Shown in pieces: positions 6,399 through 58,033 of a stretch of DNA of 64,000 nt. Positions within the stretch are counted from its first letter, which is position 1. Every line of letters begins with the position of its first letter. The translations under genes were made by a program, and so were the position numbers. The stretch lies in the IMG/VR virus record IMGVR_UViG_3300023202_000179, one strand, 5' to 3'. The stretch comes from an uncultured virus (IMG/VR IMGVR_UViG_3300023202_000179) (taxonomy: Duplodnaviria; Heunggongvirae; Uroviricota; Caudoviricetes). Below the pieces are notes generated by a model. It made no database searches and was not told the DNA's origin. It saw only the letters and a program-made list of their open reading frames with translations.

Positions 6399-6634
6399 TG
6401 TTCTACCGCTTTCCTATGGTTGGCTGTGAGAAGCCGGACAAGATTGAACACGATCGTGCCTGCGCCCGAAAGGGTGACGAAGTTTCCGACCATTCCGCCG
6501 TGTTCCGCTCCTACCAACATCATAGCAGGTCCCAGCAAAAAGACATCGACCACCCGGATAGCCTGAACCTTCGAGTCGCAGCTCAAATGTTGCGTGCAGT
6601 CAGCCATTAGCTGCCTATTACTTTCACTCGCCAA
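6395..6634 (-). CDS. Two-TM small membrane protein (paralog of 6123-6398)
   Basis: QAIRVVDVFLLGPAMMLVG motif. Confidence 0.65.
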   Translation of the reverse strand: MASESNRQLMADCTQHLSCDSKVQAIRVVDVFLLGPAMMLVGAEHGGMVGNFVTLSGAGTIVFNLVRLLTANHRKAVEQ

Positions 6635-8721
6635 TCGGAAACTCCGTCACTGACACAGATCGCCATCTCCCCAGCGTTCAAAGAGAAGTTGCTCGCCGCG
6701 CCATTGATTGTTTCACTGCCGGGACGTCCGATGGTGGCTGCTGCCCCAGTCCCCTCGTGCTCGATGATGTAGGTTGCGCCTCGGCGCCCAGGCGATGACG
6801 GAAGGGCCACGGTCTCGCCGTCGTTCATGAGCGCAAACCAACTGCGGTCGAGAGCCGCCGGAGAGTCCTCGAACTCGCCGCAGAACCCCAACGTGAACGT
6901 TCGGAACGGGCGCAAACCGTTGACTCCGAACGAGATAGCGTCGTTCTCGTCCGGGAAAAACGCAGCGGAGTTGAGCCGCAAACGTCGGATAAGATCGGTG
7001 CGGAAGTACATCGTATCCGCACCAGACGAATCGAGATCGTACTCCACCGCTCCGGTCAGTTGCCCAGACGCACCGCAAAACGACATGCCGGCAAGCCCGT
7101 CCGGGTCGCAGAGGATCGAGATGCCTGAGAGGTTTTGCGCGAGCGAGCCGAACGCCCAATCTCCGTAGCTGCTGTTCGCGTCGTCGATGTTGCCCGGGGT
7201 GAACGGAGCCCAACCATTCGGGCTCGCCGGAGTCCCCGAAACTTTCATCCACCGTGCGATTCGCCCTTCGCTTGCGTCAAGCTGCTCATAGGTCGACCCA
7301 ATCGCGCCGCGGTAGTTCCCCTCGGGCGAGCCGGTGCCTCGAAAGTGAAACCGGATCGCCCCGGACGTCAGAGCGGTCGTGATTGTACCTTCGCTCGTGG
7401 GGTCTTCGACGGGGTAGACGATCTCGCAGTCGTCGCACTGTCCGGCGACTGCGCAGTTCGCGATCGCGGTCGGAGAACCCGTCAAGTCTGCTTCGGTCCG
7501 CACGATATCGGGATCGACTCCGAAGAACTGCGGCGAGTACACGATGACGTGATTGCCACGGATGTACAGATTGTATCCGCTATCGTCGACGTCGCGCCCG
7601 TTCGAGACGAAGATCGGGCTGTGCATCGTGACGTACAGCGCTCGCAGTCCGACTTGGATCCCGTCATACCCGTTGCGCCGATAGATGCCGCCGTGCATGG
7701 TAACGCCCACCATGTTGCAGTAGATGCCTTGGAAAGCGTTGTCCTCGATCTGGCAGTTCGAGATTGTGCAATATTTTGGCTGCGGGAGGTTTGCTTGGTC
7801 GTATGCCGGCGGGTTGTCGTTGAACTGGTTGACCGACTGCGTGTTTGTGGCCAAGTAAATGCCGTAGCGGTTCCCTCGAATGATGCAGCTATCGAGTTGA
7901 ATATTTCGGACGTATCCGAACGTTGAGGGGTCGTCGAGCGTGAGGATGTCCGTTTTGATGGTCATCCCGTTGCCCTGGTTGTCGACCGCCACGAAACCGC
8001 GGACAGTGAACGAATCTCCGCCGGCGTACGCATCGAGACCGTCGCCGGCGCTGGTCGGGCTTTGTCCATTGGCTCGCGCGACACAATCCACGAGCTCGGT
8101 ATTCTCGGTCAACGCTCGGAACTTGAATCCGTCGAGGTAGTTCTCTTCGGCGAAGCAGTTCTTGTACAGCACGCCGTTGCTGTTCGAACACTCGAATCCG
8201 TAGGTCTGAAGGGCACCATCGCCCTTACAGGCTTCGAACAGCACATCTTCGACGGTGCCTGCGACTGTCCCCTCCTCCCCTCGGATCGCAAAGTTAGATC
8301 CCATCCCGCTCGACTGGCACTCTTTGACGATGATGCGGTTCGAGTTGCCGCGGATGAGGACGCCTCGGCACGAGCCCTGAGGCGCGCCGAGGCATTCGAG
8401 AATCAACCCAACCAGGCAAACGTCCGAAACACCGTCAAGGTCGAGCGCTGCGAAGTTTGCCCCCGAATCGAGTTGAATCTTGCCGCCGTACCCCAAGAAC
8501 TTGAGTCCCGACGGGATCTCAAGAGGTGCCGTGATCCGATAAGTCCCTCGAACGAGACCCAGAGCCGACCCTTGAGAGGAAGCTCTGTCGATGGCGGATT
8601 GAATCCGAGCAGTGTCGTCCTCCACACCATCCCCGACCGCTCCAAAGGTATTTACCGCAACAGTCGGTTGTTCCTCCGGGGCGGAGACATTCATGGCTCG
8701 CTGGAATCTAGGGAAAGACAT
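6607..8721 (-). CDS. Pectate-lyase-3-like right-handed beta-helix spike / depolymerase
   Basis: VNTFGAVGDGVEDDTARIQSAID motif, GTYRIT, repeated parallel beta-helix rungs. Confidence 0.85.
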   Translation of the reverse strand: MSFPRFQRAMNVSAPEEQPTVAVNTFGAVGDGVEDDTARIQSAIDRASSQGSALGLVRGTYRITAPLEIPSGLKFLGYGGKIQLDSGANFAALDLDGVSDVCLVGLILECLGAPQGSCRGVLIRGNSNRIIVKECQSSGMGSNFAIRGEEGTVAGTVEDVLFEACKGDGALQTYGFECSNSNGVLYKNCFAEENYLDGFKFRALTENTELVDCVARANGQSPTSAGDGLDAYAGGDSFTVRGFVAVDNQGNGMTIKTDILTLDDPSTFGYVRNIQLDSCIIRGNRYGIYLATNTQSVNQFNDNPPAYDQANLPQPKYCTISNCQIEDNAFQGIYCNMVGVTMHGGIYRRNGYDGIQVGLRALYVTMHSPIFVSNGRDVDDSGYNLYIRGNHVIVYSPQFFGVDPDIVRTEADLTGSPTAIANCAVAGQCDDCEIVYPVEDPTSEGTITTALTSGAIRFHFRGTGSPEGNYRGAIGSTYEQLDASEGRIARWMKVSGTPASPNGWAPFTPGNIDDANSSYGDWAFGSLAQNLSGISILCDPDGLAGMSFCGASGQLTGAVEYDLDSSGADTMYFRTDLIRRLRLNSAAFFPDENDAISFGVNGLRPFRTFTLGFCGEFEDSPAALDRSWFALMNDGETVALPSSPGRRGATYIIEHEGTGAAATIGRPGSETINGAASNFSLNAGEMAICVSDGVSDWRVKVIGS

Positions 8722-9203
8722 CAGCTCGCATCGCCAGGGAGAACACCTGCTTTGACGAGGAACCCTTTCAGATCCATCGCATCTCCAGGTCCGATCGCCC
8801 AAAGTAGGTCTCGCTTCAACTGCGAGTAGTCGTCCTCGTCGAGCATGCTAAAAGACACGGTCAAAGGATGGAACGCGAACCGGAAGATGTCATCCGTCGG
8901 GGCGTAAGTCGCTAGGACAGCGTACTCCCACCACTCAGCCGGGATGGCTTCCCGTAGTGAACGGACCTCAGAATCGCTCAGACTGTCGATGAAAGCGCTT
9001 AGTTCTTTAGCTAGAGGTCCAGGCTCGGGATCCTCGGGGTCCGGGGGAGGAGGACGAAGCGGTCCTTCGACAGGGGTCCTGTCCTCCGGTGCCGGCAGTC
9101 TGTTCTCCCGTGCAAGGAAAACTGTAGCCGTCACAGCGACTGCTGCCACACCTGTCAACGCGTAACCCCACATCGGGTGTATTCCATATCTGCTTCTCGA
9201 CAT
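8721..9203 (-). CDS. Membrane-anchored hypothetical protein
   Basis: N-terminal TM, Pro-rich linker. Confidence 0.55.
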   Translation of the reverse strand: MSRSRYGIHPMWGYALTGVAAVAVTATVFLARENRLPAPEDRTPVEGPLRPPPPDPEDPEPGPLAKELSAFIDSLSDSEVRSLREAIPAEWWEYAVLATYAPTDDIFRFAFHPLTVSFSMLDEDDYSQLKRDLLWAIGPGDAMDLKGFLVKAGVLPGDAS

Positions 9204-10117: not shown

Positions 10118-10489
10118 TTATTTGCCTTTTCGTTTGCTCTTGATGTTGGTCAGAGACTTGGAGAGCGCTTGAGTTTCATTCTCTCCGAAGCTGGCCTTTT
10201 TGGGCTCGCTCTCCGCGATGCTCGCCTTCTGGGGCTCTGACCATTGTGCCGATTGTGCCGGTGATTGCTCCCACCCCTGGGTGTCGACCACCTGTTGAGT
10301 GTCGACTGATGTTTCCTCCTGGTTGTCAGGGAAGATCACCTCTGGTTCGACGGGCCCCTCGGGTTCAGGTTCGGGGACGGGAGGTTCAGGCGGTTGATCC
10401 GGCTCAACAACAGGTTTCGGCTTCAAGTAGAGGTAGCCGAGACCAAGCGCTCCAGCTCCGAGGAGGAGGATGACCGTGTTCAACTTCAC
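10118..10489 (-). CDS. TM-anchored Pro/Glu-rich protein
   Basis: GTG start overlapping upstream stop; VILLLGAGALGLGYLYL. Confidence 0.55.
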   Translation of the reverse strand: MKLNTVILLLGAGALGLGYLYLKPKPVVEPDQPPEPPVPEPEPEGPVEPEVIFPDNQEETSVDTQQVVDTQGWEQSPAQSAQWSEPQKASIAESEPKKASFGENETQALSKSLTNIKSKRKGK

Positions 10490-11211
10490 GACAGTTTCCC
10501 CCACAACTGAACAGCTCCAGGCCAGTCCTTGATCCGGACCCGCTGGTACATAAAGGAAGGGTTCACTCCTACTTGCTTGAGACTCTTGACAAAGCGCTCC
10601 CGGGTCTTTCGAGCACGAGGGATGCCGTCTGTGTCGGACTTGAGCACCTTCTCCTCTTGCCAATCAAGACCAACGGTGTTGCCCGCCATGAAGCGGCGGA
10701 TCGTGAGCCAATTGCGTTCTTCGGGAGGCAGTTTTCCAAACCAGTTCCGGGCGACCCTCCGGACAAACGCAGCGAACATCGCAACCTGAGCTTCGGGGTC
10801 CAATACAAGGTACGGGTCAAGGTCGTGGAAACCCTCAGCCGCCAGTGCGCTAGAAGGGAGAAAACCGAACCATCCCCCCGAACCCCAGCACCAGTCTTGC
10901 TCGGGGTATGGGTTGTTCGCAAACAAAGTGTCAGCTTTGCGCCGGTATCCTCGACACGCCGCCGCGGCTTCGCTGTCCGAATCGTTGACTGCGGCAGAGT
11001 TACCCCGGCTCTCCCAGTAGGAGACCCCCAATGAGAACTTGGAGAAGCCTGGGATATACGGGTCGACCTTCTGTGCAATCCTCTGGAGTTCGCCGTAACC
11101 TTGAGGCAAATCCGCTTGGGCGTTCGCCCTTCGAGGCACCAGAACAGCCAGAAGCGCTACTGTCCCAACAGCCGCAGCTCCGTATGTGAGGAGTTCTCGA
11201 CGCATCATCAC
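10486..11211 (-). CDS. Lytic transglycosylase/lysozyme-like muralytic enzyme with N-terminal anchor
   Basis: YWESRGNSAAVN (catalytic ES motif) and GWFGFLP; N-terminal hydrophobic segment. Confidence 0.6.
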   Translation of the reverse strand: MMMRRELLTYGAAAVGTVALLAVLVPRRANAQADLPQGYGELQRIAQKVDPYIPGFSKFSLGVSYWESRGNSAAVNDSDSEAAAACRGYRRKADTLFANNPYPEQDWCWGSGGWFGFLPSSALAAEGFHDLDPYLVLDPEAQVAMFAAFVRRVARNWFGKLPPEERNWLTIRRFMAGNTVGLDWQEEKVLKSDTDGIPRARKTRERFVKSLKQVGVNPSFMYQRVRIKDWPGAVQLWGKLS

Positions 11212-11669
11212 CCTGGCAGTTTCGGGAGCCCGAGGATCTTCATCATCTCGTGCTGCCTGTTCCGACCGTTTCTTTCGGGACTCTCAAGGGCAACATTAGC
11301 CTTCTTTTTAACAATCCACGCGGCAGTTGCCCAAGACAGAACGCTGACAACAGCCCACACACCTGCGATCTTGATGAGGGCCTCCCCCGTCTTTCGGTCG
11401 CCAGCCGACTTATTGTTCAGCTTGGACGCTCCGACGATAGCAACGATTGCAGGTAACAGCACCTTTCACCCTCCGAACTGTGGGAGTTGACTGGTGTCGA
11501 CATACCCGTGGACCATGTAAGGAGAAGTCGGGGCAAAGGTGGTAGAATCCTGAGACCCGCCGGAGGATCCGTCCTGCCTTCGCTTCTTGAGGTACCAGAG
11601 CGTCCCAAAAGTAGCGCCTCCAGCCAAGACAATGAGTAGTATAGTTTTTGTGTCCATGGATCCCTTTCC

Positions 11670-21650: not shown

Positions 21651-23183
<1,533 letters not shown>

Positions 23184-23570: not shown

Positions 23571-23820
23571 GACGTAAGCTCAACTGCCCCGACGTCGGTA
23601 TGATCGTTCATGTACGGACAGTGGGGGATTACGACGAGAAACTCGAACGCTACGTGTACGATACCGTTCGAGCCCGTTTCGGGCGCGACCGAAAGACTCC
23701 ACCCGGTCGATGACGTAAACTCAACTGCCCCGACGTCGGTATGATCGTTCATGTACGGGCAGTGGGGGATTACGACGTAACTCAACTGCCCCGACGTCGG
23801 TATGATCGTTCATGTACGGG
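23571..23820 (+). repeat. Three near-identical 47-66 bp direct repeats
   Basis: Core CTCAACTGCCCCGACGTCGGTATGATCGTTCATGTACGG in copies starting at 23571, 23712 and 23774. Confidence 0.9.
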
Positions 23821-24105
23821 TCATTCGAGGATGAAGCGTTCCTGGACCTGTGGTGCTACTACGAGGCGAGTACAACGCACACCCCGAGCTCCTCGGCGGT
23901 GTGTTCGAGCGGTACGGGTGGGAAGCGGGCCTTGAAGAGCCCCCGCAAGTGCAAGAAGCTCGGGTTCGCCGAGGCTGAGGGCTTGATCCCGGTTCACCGC
24001 TTCGTGGAGCTCGACAAAGTTGTAACGAGAAGAGCAAGGATCCGATCACCATCCCTCTCGAAGGCGGGTCGAAGCGGTTGGCGAAGAAGCGGTCGGCTCG
24101 GAGGG

Positions 24106-24134
24106 TTGACATCGCTGAGAGGCGGGAGTAGTCT
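24106..24134 (+). promoter_or_regulatory. Sigma70-type promoter of the Cas12/TnpB-like gene
   Basis: TTGACA-17 nt-TAGTCT. Confidence 0.7.
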
Positions 24135-24145
24135 CGTGCCTGAGG

Positions 24146-25714
24146 ATGGAGATGGAGAAGACGATTATCAGAGCCTACAAGTTCCGGTTGTACCCGAACA
24201 AAGCCCAGATCCGGCGCTTCGAGCAGTTCAGCGATGCAGCCAAGTTTGCATGGAACTGGACACTCCGGTTTACCCAGAAGCAGCGAGAAGACGAGCTCAT
24301 CAGACTGAGGCTGCTTGAACCTCTGGATCCGGACAAGAAGCTGAGCAAGCCCCAGAGGAAGGCGCGCAAGTTCGCGATCCGAGACGCCGGGAGGAAAGCC
24401 AAGGAACTGGGTCTACCGCTCAAGCTCAGTTACAACAAGAGAGTCAAGAAACTAGTAGATCTCGGGTTTCTGCAGTCCACCGAAGAGCCCACAGGGAAGG
24501 CAGAGAAAAAAGCGAGGAGGATCGAGGTAGAGCAAGCCGAAAGGCGGGCAGCCGAGAGCGGGTACATTCTCCCTCCTCCGGAGCTCGACCCGCTGACCCT
24601 CTACCGCTGTTTCTGTCAGGAGAGGGATACCAATCCCGATTTCGCTTGGATCAAGAAAGAAGAGATCTACTCCCACGCATACAAGTACCCGATCGATCGC
24701 TTGGTCAAAGCGTACAAGGATTGGTTCAATTTCTTGGAAAAGAAGGGACCGAAAAAAGGACCCCCACAGTTCAAGGGGAGGACCGCTCCTTTGTCCTTCA
24801 CGCTACAGTTGCAGAATTGGATCTCCGTCGAAGGAGGGCTGAGAGTCCCGGGACTGAAGCGCAAAGCGGACGACAAGAGCATGTATCGGGTGAGGTGTCG
24901 TCCGAACCCGGAGGACATCATCAAATCCGGGAAGCCGTGTGAGATCACCGTCCGTCGCGTCGCCGACCGCTGGTACGCAACCGTCGTCTTCAAAGAGGTC
25001 CTGTACGAGCCGAAGCCAACACCCAGGAAGACAGCGGTTGGCGTCGATCTAGGGCTGAACAGTCTCGTCACCTTGTACGATGGCGAAGGGTACCGAGAGG
25101 TTGAACCCCCCAAGTGTCTTGCCCGTGCCCAGAAGATACTCGCAAAGCTTCAGCGGCAGCAAGCCAAGAAAGTCGTTGGATCGAAGCGCCACTTCAAACA
25201 GCGGATGCGAGTGGCGCGTCTCCATGCACAGGTAGCCAACACCCGCTACGATTTTTTGCAGAAACTCTCTTGCAAACTGGTGGACGAGTATGATACGGTT
25301 GTCGTCGAAGGTTTCGACGTGTCCAAGCTAGTTCACACAGGGGTGGAAGGGACCAACAAGCAAAAAGCCAGCAAGCGCCTGAAAATGCTGGATGCGTCTT
25401 GGGGGGAGCTCCGGCGGCAGCTGGATTACAAGTCCAACTGGAACGATCGAGTTTTCATTGTCCCACCCAAAAACGAACCGACTGACCAGACCTGTTCGGA
25501 GTGCGGAGCGCTCAACAAGCCCTCACTCAAGACCAGCGTCTACAAATGCAGCGAGTGTGGATTTTCCTCGACAAGACAGAGGAACACCGCTAAGCTTCTA
25601 CTGAGTTTCGCCACCGGCAACGGTGGAGGAAGTACCCCGGGTGGCGGGGGAACTTACGCACGTGGAGTGGAGGGTAAGTCTCCTTCGGAGGCGGATCTCC
25701 ACACTGAAGCGTGA
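24146..25714 (+). CDS. tnpB: CRISPR-associated TnpB/Cas12f-like protein (type V), RuvC-III Asp replaced
   Basis: N-terminal RAYKFRLYPN..Q...AWN (IS605 OrfB HTH), RuvC-I VGVDLG, RuvC-II VVVEG, CxxC..CxxC zinc ribbon, RuvC-III reads TRQRNTAKLL rather than xRDxNAAxNI; adjacent to the array. Confidence 0.9.
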   Translation: MEMEKTIIRAYKFRLYPNKAQIRRFEQFSDAAKFAWNWTLRFTQKQREDELIRLRLLEPLDPDKKLSKPQRKARKFAIRDAGRKAKELGLPLKLSYNKRVKKLVDLGFLQSTEEPTGKAEKKARRIEVEQAERRAAESGYILPPPELDPLTLYRCFCQERDTNPDFAWIKKEEIYSHAYKYPIDRLVKAYKDWFNFLEKKGPKKGPPQFKGRTAPLSFTLQLQNWISVEGGLRVPGLKRKADDKSMYRVRCRPNPEDIIKSGKPCEITVRRVADRWYATVVFKEVLYEPKPTPRKTAVGVDLGLNSLVTLYDGEGYREVEPPKCLARAQKILAKLQRQQAKKVVGSKRHFKQRMRVARLHAQVANTRYDFLQKLSCKLVDEYDTVVVEGFDVSKLVHTGVEGTNKQKASKRLKMLDASWGELRRQLDYKSNWNDRVFIVPPKNEPTDQTCSECGALNKPSLKTSVYKCSECGFSSTRQRNTAKLLLSFATGNGGGSTPGGGGTYARGVEGKSPSEADLHTEA

Positions 25715-25768
25715 ACGACTACACCTTCGGGAGGTGTCCCGGGGAGGCCCAACCTCCCCGGGTTTTTT
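25645..25768 (+). ncRNA. Putative tracrRNA / omegaRNA-derived scaffold overlapping the gene 3' end
   Basis: GAACTTACGCACGTGGAG...CTCCACACTGAAGCGTGAA resembles TnpB omegaRNA scaffolds; 25711-25735 pairs 21/25 with the CRISPR repeat; ends in a terminator; 5' boundary is approximate. Confidence 0.75.
25738..25768 (+). terminator. Rho-independent terminator ending the cas/tracr transcript
   Basis: CCCGGGGAGG-CCCAA-CCTCCCCGGG-TTTTTT. Confidence 0.9.
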
Positions 25769-25885
25769 AGCCCGCCGTCCTTGCGCTAGCATGCAAGGAC
25801 GGGATCTCCCAACGTCGGAGCCCCCGTGCTAGCGCAAGAGAAGAAGAACAAGGTTCAGCGCTTTGCTCCTAGAAGAGAAGGGGGA

Positions 25886-26681
25886 GTAACATCAACCTCC
25901 CGAACGAGTAGACGATCACACGAACTTCCGCCAGTCGGCCTCGCTCGCGAAGTCGGCTGTAACATCAACCTCCCGAACGAGTAGACGATCACACCGGGGT
26001 CCCGTACTTGCTGATGTCAACGATCTTCCGGTAACATCAACCTCCCGAACGAGTAGACGATCACACTCGGTGTCTTCGCCAGTCACGCTCATGCGCAAAA
26101 TCGTAACATCAACCTCCCGAACGAGTAGACGATCACACGCGTTGAGAAAGGCGTGGATCCACTCGTCTTTGATGTAACATCAACCTCCCGAACGAGTAGA
26201 CGATCACACCGACCGCCTCGAACTCCCCTGGACGTACATGCAAAAGTAACATCAACCTCCCGAACGAGTAGACGATCACACTGGAAAGCGAACGCCCAAC
26301 GAAGATGCCCTTGCATGTAACATCAACCTCCCGAACGAGTAGACGATCACACTCAGTGGAACGCTCGGCAGAAGTATCCGCTGGATTGGAGTAACATCAA
26401 CCTCCCGAACGAGTAGACGATCACACTGCGGCACCTCTACAACGAAGACGACTTGAGACGGGTAACATCAACCTCCCGAACGAGTAGACGATCACACGAA
26501 GGACATCGATTGAGAAAGGCCAAGGTAACATCAACCTCCCGAACGAGTAGACGATCACACGAAAGCTGGATTTGTTCTCCGATTTGCCGTGAGCGGTAAC
26601 ATCAACCTCCCGAACGAGTAGACGATCACATGCCGAGATGATCGCGTAACATCAACCTCCCGAACGAGTAGACGATCACAC
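25886..26681 (+). CRISPR. CRISPR array: 12 repeats of 36 bp, 11 spacers
   Basis: Repeat GTAACATCAACCTCCCGAACGAGTAGACGATCACAC at 25886, 25959, 26031, 26103, 26174, 26246, 26317, 26391, 26462, 26525, 26596, 26646; spacers 35-38 bp except 27 bp and ~14-15 bp near the right (trailer) end. Confidence 0.98.
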
Positions 26682-26694
26682 CCGAAGGCAAAAA

Positions 26695-26725
26695 CAAACC
26701 CCGCAGCGGATGACTGCGGGGTTTG
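26695..26725. terminator. Hairpin after the array
   Basis: CAAACCCCGCAG-7nt-CTGCGGGGTTTG preceded by an A-run (bidirectional). Confidence 0.7.
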
Positions 26726-26776
26726 CGAGGAGGGAGAGATGGTTTCTTTTCTCAGAGAGTCGACTTGGTAACCAAG

Positions 26777-56081: not shown

Positions 56082-57062
56082 GTGACGACTCGTCTGAAAC
56101 GACGAGAATCGGTCTCCGCTCTCGTAGAATCGTCAACGCAGGACGACATTGATACGTTCATGCTCGTCCTGCGGAACTGGCTGGCACCGCTGACCGATTC
56201 ATCGCAGGCGGCGTACCATGCCTGCTTGATTGACTTCGCCCGTTTTTGGGGCTCAGACGAAACCCGTTCGGTGTTTGAGTGGGTCTGGCTTCCTGCGAAG
56301 GAGTCATACAAAGAACTGCTCGCGTACAAGGTGAACCTCAGCGAGCGGAAACTCTCTGCCCCCACGATCAACCAACGATTATCCTGCCTCATGTCGGTTT
56401 CAAAGGCGGCTTCCAAGGTCTTTGGGCATAACCCGGTCTCGATCGAGCTCCTCCACGTCCCTGAAAAGGAGGCGAGAGTCGTCAGCAACGCTCAGTGGCA
56501 CGCTGTTGTCCGTCACCTACGACAGGAGCGTGACAGGGCGACCCCGGGGACCAGAGGCGAGATGCTGGCAGTGCGGATGCTGGCGATCGTCAGACTTTTG
56601 CGGGACGTTGGACTTCGGCGAAAAGAGGTGGTAGGTCTGGACTACTCGGATGTGGTCTATGCCGACAAGGTGCTGGTGATTCAGCCTAAAGGCCCCAAAG
56701 AAGTACGCAAGCGGCACCCTTGCGACGGTCGAGCTTGGGAGTGTCTTGTCGAGTGGATGGAGCTCCGAGGAGATGAGCCTGGACCGCTATTTGGGTTCAC
56801 ACACCTGTCCAACTTGAACAAGCTCGTCGGTCGGCTGGGGTCCGCCCTAGGCTTCGAACTCACCCCCCACATGTTTCGGCACAACGCTACATCTGCCGTC
56901 GAGATGATCGCTGATCGGGATATGGCGCAGACCTTCGCTAGACACGCCAGCCCCGTCACCACTGCAAAATACCTGCACAACAAACACGAAGAAGCGTTGC
57001 GAGAGATTCAGAGGAGCTTAGGAGAAGATGAAGAAGAAGACATCGGATCTGAAGAAGGGTGA
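56082..57062 (+). CDS. Tyrosine recombinase / integrase
   Basis: GLRRKEVVGLD, PKG, TPHMFRH, HAS..TTAKY (R-K-H-R-H-Y). Confidence 0.9.
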   Translation: MTTRLKRRESVSALVESSTQDDIDTFMLVLRNWLAPLTDSSQAAYHACLIDFARFWGSDETRSVFEWVWLPAKESYKELLAYKVNLSERKLSAPTINQRLSCLMSVSKAASKVFGHNPVSIELLHVPEKEARVVSNAQWHAVVRHLRQERDRATPGTRGEMLAVRMLAIVRLLRDVGLRRKEVVGLDYSDVVYADKVLVIQPKGPKEVRKRHPCDGRAWECLVEWMELRGDEPGPLFGFTHLSNLNKLVGRLGSALGFELTPHMFRHNATSAVEMIADRDMAQTFARHASPVTTAKYLHNKHEEALREIQRSLGEDEEEDIGSEEG

Positions 57063-57296: not shown

Positions 57297-57629
57297 ATGA
57301 TGCGGGTGGGGACCGACAAGTTCCGGGAGTGGTGCCGCAGGCTGCGCCAGCTTTTCCCTTTGGATCGCCCGGTCCGAATCCGCCGCCTGAAGTTATCGGA
57401 CAAGACCATGACCCGTTTCGGGGTAGCTTGGTCGGCGATCGCCGACGACGGGTACGATATCGTGATCCACAAAGGGTTGGATTGGTGCTCGGTCTCTGAC
57501 TGCCTGATGCACGAGTGGTGTCACCTCCGTCGGCATGAGGACAGCGATGGCGCTGCGGGGCACCTCCATGATGACGAGTTCTGGACCGAGTTCGGAAAGA
57601 TTTACAGGACATTCCACAAGGAGAAGTGA
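57297..57629 (+). CDS. SprT-like HExxH metalloprotein
   Basis: LMHEWCH...H...FW. Confidence 0.6.
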   Translation: MMRVGTDKFREWCRRLRQLFPLDRPVRIRRLKLSDKTMTRFGVAWSAIADDGYDIVIHKGLDWCSVSDCLMHEWCHLRRHEDSDGAAGHLHDDEFWTEFGKIYRTFHKEK

Positions 57630-58033
57630 TGAGCGATATCAAACGTAAACCGACTTTCAGCAACGACCTTGGCGATGACACGGTCGACCTCAGGATCCCC
57701 ACCCATAGGCGGTGCTACATCATCGTCGAACCAGACCCGCTTCCAGACAAAGCGGGAAGCTTGTTCATCCCTGAGAAGCACCAAGAGCAACGCGAGCACC
57801 GCTGCTTGTTGGGGACAGTGCGGCAAGTGCCCGAGGGACACTACAACGAACGCGGACGGTTGATCCGTCCCGACGTCGCGCCGGGGGACCGGGTCGTCTA
57901 CGATCGCAACTCTGGGGCCGAGGGTGACCCCCTCGGGTACTACGGGGTGGCGTTGATTCCAGAGGAAGCGATTCTCCTCAAAGAGCCGCGAGACGATAGA
58001 GATCAAGACGGAGAAGTGGAGAAGATCGGATGA
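57626..58033 (+). CDS. groES: GroES-like co-chaperonin
   Basis: IIVE..AGSLFIPE..GTV..V.EG..N..G....DVAPGDRVVY...LIPEEAIL. Confidence 0.8.
   Translation: MMSDIKRKPTFSNDLGDDTVDLRIPTHRRCYIIVEPDPLPDKAGSLFIPEKHQEQREHRCLLGTVRQVPEGHYNERGRLIRPDVAPGDRVVYDRNSGAEGDPLGYYGVALIPEEAILLKEPRDDRDQDGEVEKIG

What the first reader, a model, noticed from the sequence alone, without database searches (positions are those of the whole stretch)
24106..26725. Phage-encoded miniature type V CRISPR locus with a probably nuclease-impaired TnpB-like effector
Seen: promoter, 522-aa TnpB-like gene, terminator, leader and 12-repeat array, with no tnpA and no cas1/cas2 in the window. RuvC-I D and RuvC-II E are intact, but RuvC-III reads STRQRNTAKLL, with Q at the catalytic D of xRDxNAAxN. 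Known: RuvC needs the D-E-D triad, and natural dead derivatives (Cas12m, Cas12k, TldR) act by DNA binding or repression. Inference: a virus-borne, array-programmed DNA-binding repressor aimed at host genes or competing elements, recently derived from IS605 TnpB.
Basis: partly seen in the sequence, partly recalled or inferred. Interest (0 to 1): 0.9.

Follow-up and report, generated by a model that had tools for sequence, protein, structure and literature searches.

The report
Phage CRISPR effector with altered nuclease site
A phage-like genome carries a miniature CRISPR locus whose small TnpB/Cas12n-like protein belongs to a conserved, undescribed lineage in which one of the three catalytic residues is always glutamine, so it may bind rather than cut DNA.

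Summary
Window 24107-26726 (+) carries a promoter-like site, a 522-aa TnpB-family gene, a strong terminator, a 117-nt leader and 12 repeats of 36 nt with 11 spacers. No cas1, cas2, cas4 or tnpA was found among 94 ORFs. Gln478 aligns to catalytic Asp361 of ISDra2 TnpB and Asp484 of RdCas12n.

- **Not a recent lesion.** Gln is fixed in a well-supported clade: 38 of 41 rows, the others Arg or Pro. The neighbouring sites are remodelled with it, including Ser-to-Asp at residue 447. Asp301 (45/45) and Glu388 (44/45) are kept.
- **Closest relatives.** The clade groups with the Cas12n (V-N, formerly V-U4) lineage but fails its profile.
- **Shared architecture with Cas12n.** The C-terminal tail is disordered. 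A structured tracrRNA overlaps the gene's 3' end, and its anti-repeat (25710-25736) pairs with repeat nt 9-35.
- **Second member.** The only other member with DNA available (L008) has the same layout in an unrelated mobile element.
- **Targets unknown.** No spacer target was found.

Best reading: a working RNA-guided DNA-targeting module that probably binds without cutting (about 50%). The main rival is a rewired but active nuclease using Asp447 (about 35%). It is a new variant of a known kind.

The parts
24107..24135 (+). promoter-like site, TTGACA-17 nt-TAGTCT, about 10-17 nt before the start codons
   Evidence: Read from the sequence. It fell below the consensus-scan threshold. L008 has TTGACG-17-TAATAG at the equivalent place before its start codon. 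Function is inferred.
24146..25714 (+). effector gene, 522 aa (alternative start 24152, 520 aa): a TnpB/Cas12n-like protein of the Gln clade
   Evidence: AlphaFold2 model: pLDDT 87.1, pTM 0.81. Best fold match is ISDra2 TnpB 8h1j, TM 0.78 by target.
24266..24628 (+). helical REC insertion, roughly residues 41-161, replacing about 27 residues of ISDra2 TnpB
   Evidence: The HMMER alignment jumps from query 9-40 / TnpB 5-36 to query 162-167 / TnpB 64-69. The model shows helices here, with pLDDT of 59-77 over residues 61-120. The boundaries are approximate.
25046..25048 (+). RuvC-I Asp301 codon (GAT)
   Evidence: Invariant in 45 of 45 clade-alignment rows.
25307..25309 (+). RuvC-II Glu388 codon (GAA), within the clade motif E-G-F-D
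   Evidence: Glu in 44 of 45 rows and Asp in 1. Canonical proteins have E-D-L-N/A here.
25484..25486 (+). Asp447 codon (GAC) at the junction of the RuvC beta5 strand and the zinc-finger (TNB) domain; the candidate relocated acidic residue
   Evidence: Gln-clade rows: Asp 32, Asn 6. Canonical rows: Ser 181, Thr 21, Asn 1, never Asp. Its nearness to Q478 is inferred from the domain topology of ISDra2 TnpB (passage of PMC10097598). It was not measured.
25577..25579 (+). Gln478 codon (CAG) at the RuvC-III catalytic Asp position
   Evidence: Aligned to D361 of ISDra2 TnpB and D484 of RdCas12n. Gln in 38, Arg in 6 and Pro in 1 of 45 rows.
25600..25768 (+). predicted tracrRNA (omega-RNA-like scaffold) overlapping the gene's 3' end; the 5' end is approximate
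   Evidence: Window 25560-25770 folds at -94.7 kcal/mol, z = -3.5. The L008 counterpart gives z = -4.0. Stems change in a compensatory way between the two loci. The encoded protein tail 495-522 has pLDDT below 50. The architecture matches published Cas12n (passages of PMC12216341 and bioRxiv 2026.03.27.714800).
25710..25736 (+). anti-repeat
   Evidence: Pairs with repeat nt 9-35: 21 bp, -30.9 kcal/mol. One of 1589 background windows did better. It has the best ungapped complementarity in 24001-25885: 22 of 36, next best 18.
25738..25768 (+). intrinsic terminator: 10-bp stem, 5-nt loop, then T6
   Evidence: L008 has the equivalent hairpin plus T6 inside its reading frame.
25769..25885 (+). leader between the terminator and the first repeat
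   Evidence: No promoter was found by the scan, so how the array is transcribed is not established.
25886..26681 (+). CRISPR array: 12 x 36-nt repeats and 11 spacers. The far end is degenerate (repeat 11 has 1 mismatch; spacers of 27 and 14 nt).
   Evidence: The same polarity, with perfect repeats next to the gene and degenerate ones far from it, is seen in L008's array of 17 or more repeats.
26694..26726 (.). 14-bp hairpin closing the locus
   Evidence: The scan scored it as terminator-like on the - strand. On the + strand only TTTG follows the stem. Its role is uncertain.

Best explanation
This is a self-contained type V-like CRISPR module without adaptation genes, carried by a phage-like element.

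**The effector.** It belongs to a conserved lineage of TnpB-derived proteins that groups with Cas12n. Its RuvC pocket is remodelled:

| Site | This lineage | Canonical proteins |
|---|---|---|
| RuvC-II | E-G-F-D | E-D-L-N |
| beta5/zinc-finger junction | T-D-Q | S-S-Q |
| RuvC-III | T-R-Q-x-N-T-A-x-L-L | D-R-D-x-N-A-A-x-N-I |

**Proposed working**
1. The 3' end of the effector transcript (about 25600-25768) folds into a tracrRNA that ends at the intrinsic terminator.
2. The array transcript supplies crRNAs. Repeat nt 9-35 pair with the anti-repeat at 25710-25736.
3. The protein-tracrRNA-crRNA complex finds PAM-flanked double-stranded DNA of rival mobile elements or of the host, and forms an R-loop.
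4. The third carboxylate of the two-metal site is Gln, so double-strand cleavage is most likely lost or much reduced. Interference would then work by tight binding that blocks transcription or replication, as in Cas12m.
5. The conserved Asp301/Glu388 pocket would be kept for binding the displaced strand through one metal ion, or for processing the guide RNA.

**Shown:** anatomy, clade membership, residue conservation, RNA structure and complementarity.
**Inferred:** expression, RNA processing, targets, and the absence of cleavage.
For: **Locus anatomy.**

**Gln is a conserved feature**
- 17 of 17 closest homologues carry it.
- In a 45-row alignment: Gln 38, Arg 6, Pro 1.
- With the trait columns removed, a 41-row set (Gln 38, Arg 2, Pro 1) is one branch. 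Support is 99 in FastTree (263 rows) and SH-aLRT 97 in IQ-TREE (105 rows).

**Arg or Pro in 7 of 45 rows** cannot bind a metal ion.

**The candidate compensating Asp447 is not invariant**
- It is Asn in 6 of 38 Gln rows.
- It is Gly, Asn or Ser in 6 of 7 Arg rows.

**No other invariant acidic column is specific to the clade**.

**tracrRNA**
- Folding z-scores are -3.5 and -4.0.
- Stems are compensatory between the window and L008.
- The anti-repeat sits just before the terminator in both loci.
- The C-terminal tail is disordered.

**Same module in an unrelated element.** L008 lies on a 158.7-kb contig that shares 3 of 94 window ORFs.

**Precedent.** Cas12m2's non-canonical HDD site binds the non-target strand through one Mg ion and silences without cutting (passages of PMC10442227).
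Against: - **No biochemistry.** Nothing here tests cleavage.
- **Conserved pocket.** Asp301 (45/45), Glu388 (44/45), Arg477, Asn480 and Thr481 (45/45 each) are as conserved as in active enzymes. Fully dead lineages usually lose them (passages of the TldR preprint).
- **The Ser-to-Asp change at 447.** It co-occurs with Asp-to-Gln at 478. In ISDra2 TnpB the two positions flank the inserted zinc-finger domain (residues 327-359; passage of PMC10097598), so they probably touch. A swapped carboxylate could restore a triad.
- **Published argument.** The TnpB/Cas12 census argues that conserved catalytic alterations often keep nuclease activity (PMC10691335, section 8).
- **No target known.** No protospacer was found, so the kind of target and its position relative to promoters are unknown.
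- **Thin DNA sample.** Only two members of the clade could be examined as DNA.
Confidence: 0.5

Rival explanations
1. The nuclease is rewired but still active. The catalytic carboxylate has moved from the RuvC-III helix (now Gln478) to Asp447 at the beta5/zinc-finger junction. The resulting D301-E388-D447 triad still cuts DNA, possibly with altered strand or substrate preference, so the locus is an ordinary cleaving phage-borne CRISPR weapon.
For: - Residue 447 is Asp in 32 of 38 Gln rows. It is never Asp in 203 canonical rows: Ser 181, Thr 21, Asn 1.
- Residues 447 and 478 correspond to the two ends of the TNB insertion in ISDra2 TnpB (residues 327-359; passage of PMC10097598).
- Asp301, Glu388, Arg477 and Asn480 are strictly conserved.
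- The census reports other TnpB branches in which a lost catalytic residue is replaced from a different structural element, and argues that these stay active (PMC10691335, section 8).
Against: - Asp447 is Asn in 6 of 38 Gln rows and Gly, Asn or Ser in 6 of 7 Arg rows.
- The co-variation is essentially one evolutionary event within one clade.
- No distance could be measured, because the tools give no model coordinates.
- In Cas12m2, restoring a canonical DED triad did not restore cleavage (discussion passage of PMC10442227). A full set of carboxylates is therefore not sufficient.
Confidence: 0.35
2. The guide-directed binder recruits another activity instead of silencing. It could, for example, steer the element's tyrosine integrase or a replication protein to chosen sites, as Cas12k does for Tn7-like transposons.
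For: - A tyrosine integrase lies about 1.2 kb beyond the L008 array (10127-11419). Another lies in the window at 56082-57062.
- The census notes repeated links between TnpB and phage-type integrases (passage of PMC10691335).
Against: - The window's integrase is 29 kb from the array.
- Apart from the effector, only an RNase T-like exonuclease and an integrase are shared between the window and the L008 contig, and both are weak matches (32% and 29% identity).
- The census associations involve TnpBs with all catalytic residues lost and no arrays.
- Arrays of 11 and of 16 or more varied spacers fit interference better than homing.
Confidence: 0.07
3. The locus is a decaying remnant, or a chance pairing of an IS-borne tnpB with an unrelated array, and has no present function.
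For: - The last two spacers are truncated (27 and 14 nt) and repeat 11 has a mismatch.
- There are no adaptation genes.
- No spacer match was found.
Against: - The reading frame is intact and gives a confident fold.
- 11 of 12 repeats are identical.
- The anti-repeat matches this array's own repeat, not L008's. The L008 tracr segment against the window repeat gives -11.6 kcal/mol, against -30.9 for the window's own pair. The reverse cross was not discriminating: window tracr against the L008 repeat gave -22.4, L008's own pair -22.2.
- The same gene-tracrRNA-array order occurs in an unrelated element.
- No tnpA or IS ends were found.
Confidence: 0.05

Closest known systems
Cas12n (type V-N, formerly V-U4 / c2c9), e.g. 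RdCas12n, PDB 9j09
   Same: - A miniature TnpB-like effector of about 500-550 aa with an expanded REC domain.
- The array lies downstream and there are no adaptation genes.
- The C-terminal tail is disordered, and its coding DNA holds a tracrRNA of about 170 nt that ends in an anti-repeat (passages of PMC12216341 and bioRxiv 2026.03.27.714800; here).
- Among solved Cas12 structures it is the closest by sequence (E 1.4e-27).
- In both trees the Gln clade falls with the Cas12n-bearing group, apart from other TnpBs (support 94).
   Different: - Cas12n has a canonical D287/E386/D484 triad and cuts DNA. Here the D484 position is Gln, and the flanking motifs differ.
- On the PADLOC Cas12u4 profile, 10 clade members score 172-267 bits. 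Four ordinary TnpBs score 223-309, and 16 true Cas12n-like proteins score 473-677.
- The equation of Cas12u4 with V-U4 and Cas12n rests on a passage of PMC12216341 and on P0060 matching 9j09 at E 1e-136.
IS200/IS605 TnpB (ISDra2 TnpB, PDB 8h1j / 8bf8)
   Same: - Best sequence match (E about 1e-35) and best fold match (TM 0.78 by target).
- The guide-RNA scaffold overlaps the 3' end of the gene.
- Same zinc finger and same domain order.
   Different: - No tnpA, and no single fixed guide. It has an array plus a split tracrRNA/crRNA instead.
- A REC insertion of about 95 aa.
- Gln in place of D361.
Cas12m (type V-M)
   Same: - A compact effector on mobile elements with a conserved non-canonical RuvC site, an array and no adaptation genes.
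- It interferes by binding, not cutting (passages of PMC10442227 and PMC11656645).
- This is the best functional analogue.
   Different: - Sequence likeness is weak (E 1e-5, C-terminal part only).
- Cas12m uses crRNA alone.
- Its triads are HDD, HEK, HQK, DED, NED and DND (discussion passage of PMC10442227), not D-E-Q.
TldR (TnpB-like nuclease-dead repressors)
   Same: A TnpB derivative with a damaged RuvC site, carried by prophages and used as an RNA-guided repressor (passages of bioRxiv 2023.11.30.569447).
   Different: - TldRs have one fixed guide RNA beside the gene and no array.
- They lose the active-site residues progressively and often the C-terminal zinc-finger/RuvC part.
- They are tied to fliC or oppF.
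- Here the protein is full length, keeps Asp and Glu, and has 11 spacers.
Cas12r of Thermus Lalka phages
   Same: A phage-borne type V locus without adaptation genes. The authors propose it fights rival integrative elements (abstract and sections 23 and 25 of bioRxiv 2026.04.20.719267).
   Different: - Cas12r has 29-bp repeats and no tracrRNA.
- It is an active nuclease; its catalytic mutant loses protection.

Membership tests
TnpB superfamily (RuvC-fold RNA-guided proteins) | OrfB_IS605 RuvC core with a CCCC zinc finger and an N-terminal HTH/WED | tested here: met
   - Pfam: three domains above their cut-offs.
- NCBIfam guided_TnpB: 196 bits against a cut-off of 100.
- Fold match to 8h1j.
IS200/IS605 transposon TnpB | Canonical D-E-D triad | tested here: not met
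   Q478 aligns to D361.
IS200/IS605 transposon TnpB | Linked tnpA or transposon ends, and a single omega-RNA guide | tested here: not met
   - No Y1 or serine transposase in Pfam (93 of 94 ORFs) or PHROGs (all 94).
- A 12-repeat array is present instead.
- NCBIfam IS200_TnpB scores 183 bits against a cut-off of 425.
Type V CRISPR-Cas (Cas12) in the broad sense | A single RuvC-type effector conserved next to a CRISPR array | tested here: met
   The window and L008, which are 2 of the 2 clade loci available as DNA. The other roughly 40 members exist here only as proteins.
Cas12n (V-N / V-U4) | Scores on the family profile at member level | tested here: not met
   PADLOC Cas12u4 profile: 216.7 bits for the window protein. 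Ten clade members score 172-267, four ordinary TnpBs 223-309, and 16 Cas12n-like proteins 473-677.
Cas12n (V-N / V-U4) | Catalytic D-E-D triad (D287, E386, D484 in RdCas12n) | tested here: not met
   Gln at the D484 position (residue numbers from a passage of PMC12216341).
Cas12n (V-N / V-U4) | Disordered C-terminal tail whose DNA encodes a tracrRNA with an anti-repeat | tested here: met
   - pLDDT is below 50 for residues 495-522.
- The RNA is structured.
- The anti-repeat lies at 25710-25736.
- Prediction only; there are no RNA data.
Cas12n (V-N / V-U4) | A-rich 5' PAM | not testable with these tools
   No protospacer was found.
C2c8 (V-U2), Cas12f2 | NCBIfam model score above the cut-off | tested here: not met
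   - C2c8: 72 bits against a cut-off of 350. The best E-value among 45 clade members is 9.3e-29.
- Cas12f2: 40.6 bits against a cut-off of 450.
Cas12m (V-M) | Sequence membership and a crRNA-only guide | tested here: not met
   - PDB Cas12m chains match only residues 357-492, at E 1e-5 to 3e-4.
- A tracrRNA is predicted here.
TldR | A single adjacent guide RNA, eroded or truncated RuvC, and a fliC or oppF neighbour | tested here: not met
   - There is an array of 11 spacers.
- The protein is full length and keeps Asp and Glu.
- Its neighbours are a primase-helicase and unknown ORFs.

The most novel reading that the evidence does not exclude
A whole sister lineage of Cas12n, spread on phages and other mobile elements, has given up the RuvC-III aspartate. 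It acts as a natural, array-programmed, multiplexed DNA binder of only about 480-520 aa, a phage-borne CRISPRi used against rival elements or host genes.

The alternative is equally new. The third catalytic carboxylate may have migrated to the beta5/zinc-finger junction (Asp447), giving a RuvC architecture not yet described for TnpB or Cas12.
Probability: 0.45. Interest if true: 0.8.

Novelty: new variant of a known kind. Interest (0 to 1): 0.65.

Why it matters
- **Evolution.** This would add a lineage to the short list of natural RNA-guided proteins that kept their guides but changed or lost cutting (Cas12k, Cas12m, TldR). It sits very close to the TnpB-to-Cas12 transition, next to Cas12n.
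- **A testable question.** The clade-wide swap of Asp to Gln at 478 together with Ser to Asp at 447 bears directly on how plastic the RuvC site is. A few point mutants would settle it.
- **Tool-making.** A natural 480-520-aa array-programmable binder, or a nuclease with a rewired site, would interest tool builders.
- **Phage biology.** It adds a case of phages carrying CRISPR arrays without adaptation genes, presumably for conflicts between mobile elements.

Tried and rejected
**Spacer targets: none found**
- Window against itself: for spacers of 27-38 nt the best matches have 10 or more mismatches.
- GenBank phages: 19 records, best E 0.8.
- PLSDB plasmids: 6 records, best E 3.
- Window and L008 spacers against the window, the L008 contig and all other fetched loci: only 11-20-nt chance matches, apart from L008's own array, which I had not masked.
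- L008 array against its own 3.7-Mb genome bin: only itself.
- Spacers were not searched in IMG/VR or in metagenomes.

**More clade loci: only one found**
- IMG/VR scan with the family alignment: 7 loci.
- Genome scan: 59 loci, of which L008 alone is a clade member.
- Of 100 loci whose match covers the motif, 98 have Asp, 1 Gln (L008), 1 Gly and 1 Val.
- A degenerate DNA pattern for C-x2-C-x5-RQxNTAxLL in IMG/VR gave 10 loci. All are the same unrelated 30-codon frame.

**Other blanks**
The other roughly 40 members could not be checked for arrays.
- No whole genome is held for the window.
- Rfam: only one sub-threshold chance hit.
- Sequencing runs: one DNA holder and no RNA holder listed.
- ESM Atlas returned only generic TnpB clusters.
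- Cluster look-up of 10 members gave no informative names.
- Model coordinates are not provided, so the Asp447-to-active-site distance could not be measured.

**Readings rejected**
- Membership of Cas12m, C2c8, Cas12f2, Cas12n or TldR: see the membership test.

**Literature**
- Searches, over open-licence PMC and bioRxiv only, found no description of a D-E-Q clade.
- The supplement PDF of PMC10691335 was searched for six terms and gave nothing relevant.
- That census may still hold this clade unnamed among its RIIIr branches or V-U groups. Its figures and data files were not seen.


Full report
**1. What is there**

On the + strand the window holds the following, in order:
- an ORF at 24146-25714, 522 aa; the catalogued version starts at 24152 and has 520 aa (P0001);
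- a 10-bp G+C-rich hairpin followed by T6 at 25738-25768;
- 117 nt of leader;
- 12 copies of a 36-nt repeat at 25886-26681, separated by 11 spacers of 37, 36, 36, 35, 36, 35, 38, 35, 27, 35 and 14 nt;
- a 14-bp hairpin at 26694-26726.

Eleven repeats are identical. Repeat 11 differs in its last base.

The protein carries OrfB_IS605, the Cas12f1-like zinc-finger domain and the OrfB HTH. It passes NCBIfam's guided_TnpB model at 196 bits against a cut-off of 100.

The relative L008 has TTGACG-17-TAATAG at the same place.

**2. The setting**

I took 94 non-overlapping ORFs of 70 aa or more. PHROGs and Pfam recognise:
- a tail-spike-like beta-helix protein;
- an M15 endolysin;
- a family A DNA polymerase;
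- a primase-polymerase/helicase directly after the array;
- PD-(D/E)XK and RNase T-like exonucleases;
- an SbcD-like nuclease;
- MazG;
- a tyrosine integrase.

No capsid, portal or terminase profile matched, so I call the element phage-like rather than a proven phage.

No Cas1, Cas2, Cas4 or transposase family matched (Pfam on 93 of the 94 ORFs, PHROGs on all 94). No whole genome is held for the window.

**3. The catalytic site**

HMMER alignments to solved structures place Q478 opposite D361 of ISDra2 TnpB and D484 of RdCas12n. Both are the RuvC-III catalytic aspartates according to passages of PMC10097598 and PMC12216341. D301 and E388 occupy the RuvC-I and RuvC-II positions.

**4. A clade feature, not a lesion**

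- The 16 closest database proteins (31-46% identity) all have T/S/P-R-Q-x-N-T-A-x-L-L.
- A profile search of 1.84 billion representatives added more.
- In a 45-row alignment the three positions read: Asp 45/45; Glu 44/45; and Gln 38, Arg 6, Pro 1.
- I aligned all 263 proteins in hand. The RuvC-III residue is Asp in 203, Gln in 38, Arg in 7 and something else in 15.

The Gln rows differ from the Asp rows at three neighbouring sites:

| Site | Gln rows | Asp (canonical) rows |
|---|---|---|
| After the RuvC-II Glu | Gly 37/38 | Asp 166/203 |
| Position 447, just before the zinc finger | Asp 32, Asn 6 | Ser 181, Thr 21, Asn 1 |
| 'NTA' versus 'NAA' | Thr 38/38 | Ala 199/203 |

With all these trait columns removed:
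- FastTree on 263 rows recovers a 41-row set (Gln 38, Arg 2, Pro 1) with support 99.
- IQ-TREE on 105 rows recovers the same 41 rows as one branch with SH-aLRT 97.

**5. Where the clade belongs**

- The best solved relatives are ISDra2 TnpB (E about 1e-35) and then RdCas12n (1.4e-27). Cas12m reaches only 1e-5.
- Foldseek ranks ISDra2 TnpB first, TM 0.78 by target.
- In the FastTree the sister of the Gln clade is a 30-row group, with joint support 94. It holds P0060 and P0185.
- P0060 matches RdCas12n at E 1e-136.
- In the IQ-TREE run, 34 randomly drawn other TnpBs split off from the Gln clade plus that group with support 93.

Even so, the clade is not covered by the Cas12n profile. On PADLOC's Cas12u4 model:

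| Group | Proteins tested | Bits |
|---|---|---|
| Gln clade | 10 | 172-267 |
| Ordinary TnpBs | 4 | 223-309 |
| Cas12n-like | 16 | 473-677 |

All 45 aligned members hit NCBIfam's C2c8 model only weakly: best E 9.3e-29, and 72 bits for the window protein against a cut-off of 350. The trees use only the top hits of my own searches and are rooted at midpoint. 'Sister of Cas12n' is therefore a well-supported grouping, not a rooted history.

**6. The guide RNAs**

Published Cas12n systems have a disordered, dispensable C-terminal tail. The DNA coding for it holds a tracrRNA of about 170 nt that ends near an anti-repeat (passages of PMC12216341 and bioRxiv 2026.03.27.714800). The window shows the same features:
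- The AlphaFold2 model is confident overall (pLDDT 87.1, pTM 0.81, 45-row alignment), but residues 495-522 fall below 50.
- RNA 25560-25770 folds at -94.7 kcal/mol, z = -3.5. Only 1 of 200 shuffles folded as well.
- Segment 25710-25736, which spans the stop codon, pairs with repeat nt 9-35 over 21 bp at -30.9 kcal/mol. Only 1 of 1589 background windows did better.
- That segment has the best ungapped complementarity upstream of the array: 22 of 36, next best 18.
- The terminator follows at once.

**7. An independent second locus**

L008 lies on a 158.7-kb, 62.5% G+C contig binned with a Flavipsychrobacter genome. It encodes a clade member 34% identical to the window protein.
- The array begins 8 nt after its stop codon. 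I counted 17 repeats of 36 nt, perfect near the gene and increasingly degenerate further away.
- The gene's 3' part folds with z = -4.0.
- It aligns to the window with stems that change on both sides, such as CCACCG/CGGUGG against GGCGGG/CCCUCC around a shared GCAA loop, and CCCCG/CGGGG against CCGGG/CCCGG (my reading of the alignment).
- It has its own anti-repeat (11 bp, -19.3 kcal/mol, pairing with repeat nt 17-30) directly before a hairpin plus T6.
- In one direction the cross pairing is clearly poorer: the L008 tracr segment against the window repeat gives -11.6 kcal/mol, against -30.9 for the window's own pair. The reverse cross was not discriminating (-22.4 against -22.2).
- In L008 and several other members the reading frame runs through this terminator. 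That explains a conserved 'G-x-x-F-L' stretch in their protein tails.
- The contig shares only 3 of 94 window ORFs: the effector, an exonuclease and an integrase.
- It looks like a large mobile element: ParB, integrase, D5-type primase, SNF2 helicases, a methylase and many unknown ORFs.

The module is therefore conserved across unrelated carriers. Two loci are few. The rest of the clade exists here only as protein sequences.

**8. Strand and polarity**

The T-runs follow both hairpins on the + strand. Both arrays are perfect at the gene end and decayed at the far end. The 3' ends of the two repeats resemble each other (…GACGATCACAC and …GAGCGATGTCAC). All of this fits transcription in the sense of the gene, with repeat-then-spacer crRNAs as in other type V systems. 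No promoter was detected in the leader, and no RNA data exist.

**9. Dead or rewired?**

*For loss of cutting*
- The third carboxylate of a two-metal RuvC site is replaced by Gln. In 7 of 45 rows it is Arg or Pro, which cannot bind metal.
- The only candidate substitute, Asp447, is Asn in 6 of 38 Gln rows and Gly, Asn or Ser in most Arg rows.
- Cas12m2 shows that a conserved odd triad can serve strand binding through a single Mg ion. There, restoring DED did not restore cutting (passages of PMC10442227).

*For a rewired nuclease*
- Asp301, Glu388, Arg477 and Asn480 are invariant across a clade whose members share as little as 24% identity with the window protein.
- The Ser-to-Asp change at 447 is exactly coupled to Asp-to-Gln at 478.
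- In ISDra2 TnpB the zinc-finger domain (327-359) is inserted between strand beta5 and helix alpha4 (passage of PMC10097598). The equivalents of 447 (S328) and 478 (D361) therefore sit at the two ends of the insertion and should lie close together. This is an inference, because I had no coordinates.
- The TnpB/Cas12 census reports branches in which a lost catalytic residue is replaced from another element. It argues that conserved alterations often stay active (section 8 of PMC10691335).

*My weighting*
- Binding without double-strand cutting: about 50%.
- Rewired nuclease: about 35%.
- The kept Asp/Glu pocket could also serve guide-RNA processing. Passages in the Lalka preprint and in bioRxiv 2026.03.27.714800 say that TnpB and several Cas12 mature their guides with RuvC.

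**10. Targets**

No spacer matches any of the following:
- the window itself (10 or more mismatches);
- GenBank phages (best E 0.8);
- PLSDB plasmids (best E 3);
- the L008 contig or any other fetched locus.

L008's spacers match nothing else in its genome bin. Mean spacer G+C is 56%, close to the window's 55-61%. The idea that the array is aimed at rival elements or the host is reasonable by analogy:
- Cas12r of Lalka phages, aimed at integrative elements;
- Cas12m, in plasmid competition;
- TldR, repressing host fliC.

It remains untested here.

**11. Novelty**

I found no paper describing a D-E-Q clade or a Cas12n-like lineage without the RuvC-III aspartate.
- The searches were made, over open-licence PMC and bioRxiv only.
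- From the nine papers opened I read passages or named sections, not whole texts.
- The 2023 census lists six branches with an altered RuvC-III and 40 V-U groups without giving their sequences in the text I could see. This clade may be counted there unnamed.
- The supplement PDF, searched for six terms, gave nothing relevant.

I therefore rate it a new variant of a known kind, with interest 0.65. The architecture is that of Cas12n and the idea of non-cutting type V effectors is established. A conserved, phage-borne, array-linked lineage with this particular remodelling is new to the literature I could search, and it poses a sharp, testable question.

Noticed in passing
window 23571-23838: Three direct copies of a 66-nt unit (97% and 70% identical to the first) lie just upstream of the effector promoter. 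They overlap small ORFs that repeat the peptide '…LNCPDVGMIVHVR.VGDYD…'. This is either a partly triplicated small gene or a set of binding sites.
   Followed up: no
L008 7350-7530, and the C-terminal tails of P0003-P0015: In L008 and several clade members the effector reading frame runs through the tracrRNA terminator hairpin and T-run, translated as '…GAGGFL…'. It continues as a Lys/Arg-rich tail up to the first repeat. In the window the frame stops before the hairpin. It is unclear whether the long tails are made.
   Followed up: partly
window 26694-26726: The hairpin after the array scores as a terminator on the - strand, where a T-run follows it. All genes to its right are on the + strand. 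The longest ORF of the primase-helicase (start TTG 26723) begins inside it.
   Followed up: no
window 21651-23183: A 510-aa ORF with an (EP)8-like acidic repeat near its N-terminus has no family match beyond a chance hit to a repetitive trypanosome protein.
   Followed up: no
window 57626-58033: A phage-borne GroES (Cpn10)-like ORF (Pfam E 1.5e-7) lies in a block with the integrase, a MazG-like protein, an NT5C-type nucleotidase and an SbcD-like nuclease.
   Followed up: no
proteins P0148, P0226, P0240, P0244 (no window coordinates): A second small group, placed in the Cas12n-side sister set, has D-R-R-x-N-T-A at RuvC-III, with Arg at the catalytic position, and Gly or Ser at the 447 position. 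This may be an independent loss of the same aspartate.
   Followed up: partly
window 1-21000: Nearly all ORFs of the left arm, mostly on the - strand, have no PHROG or Pfam match apart from the tail-spike-like protein at 6607-8802. If these are the structural genes, the virion module is very divergent.
   Followed up: no
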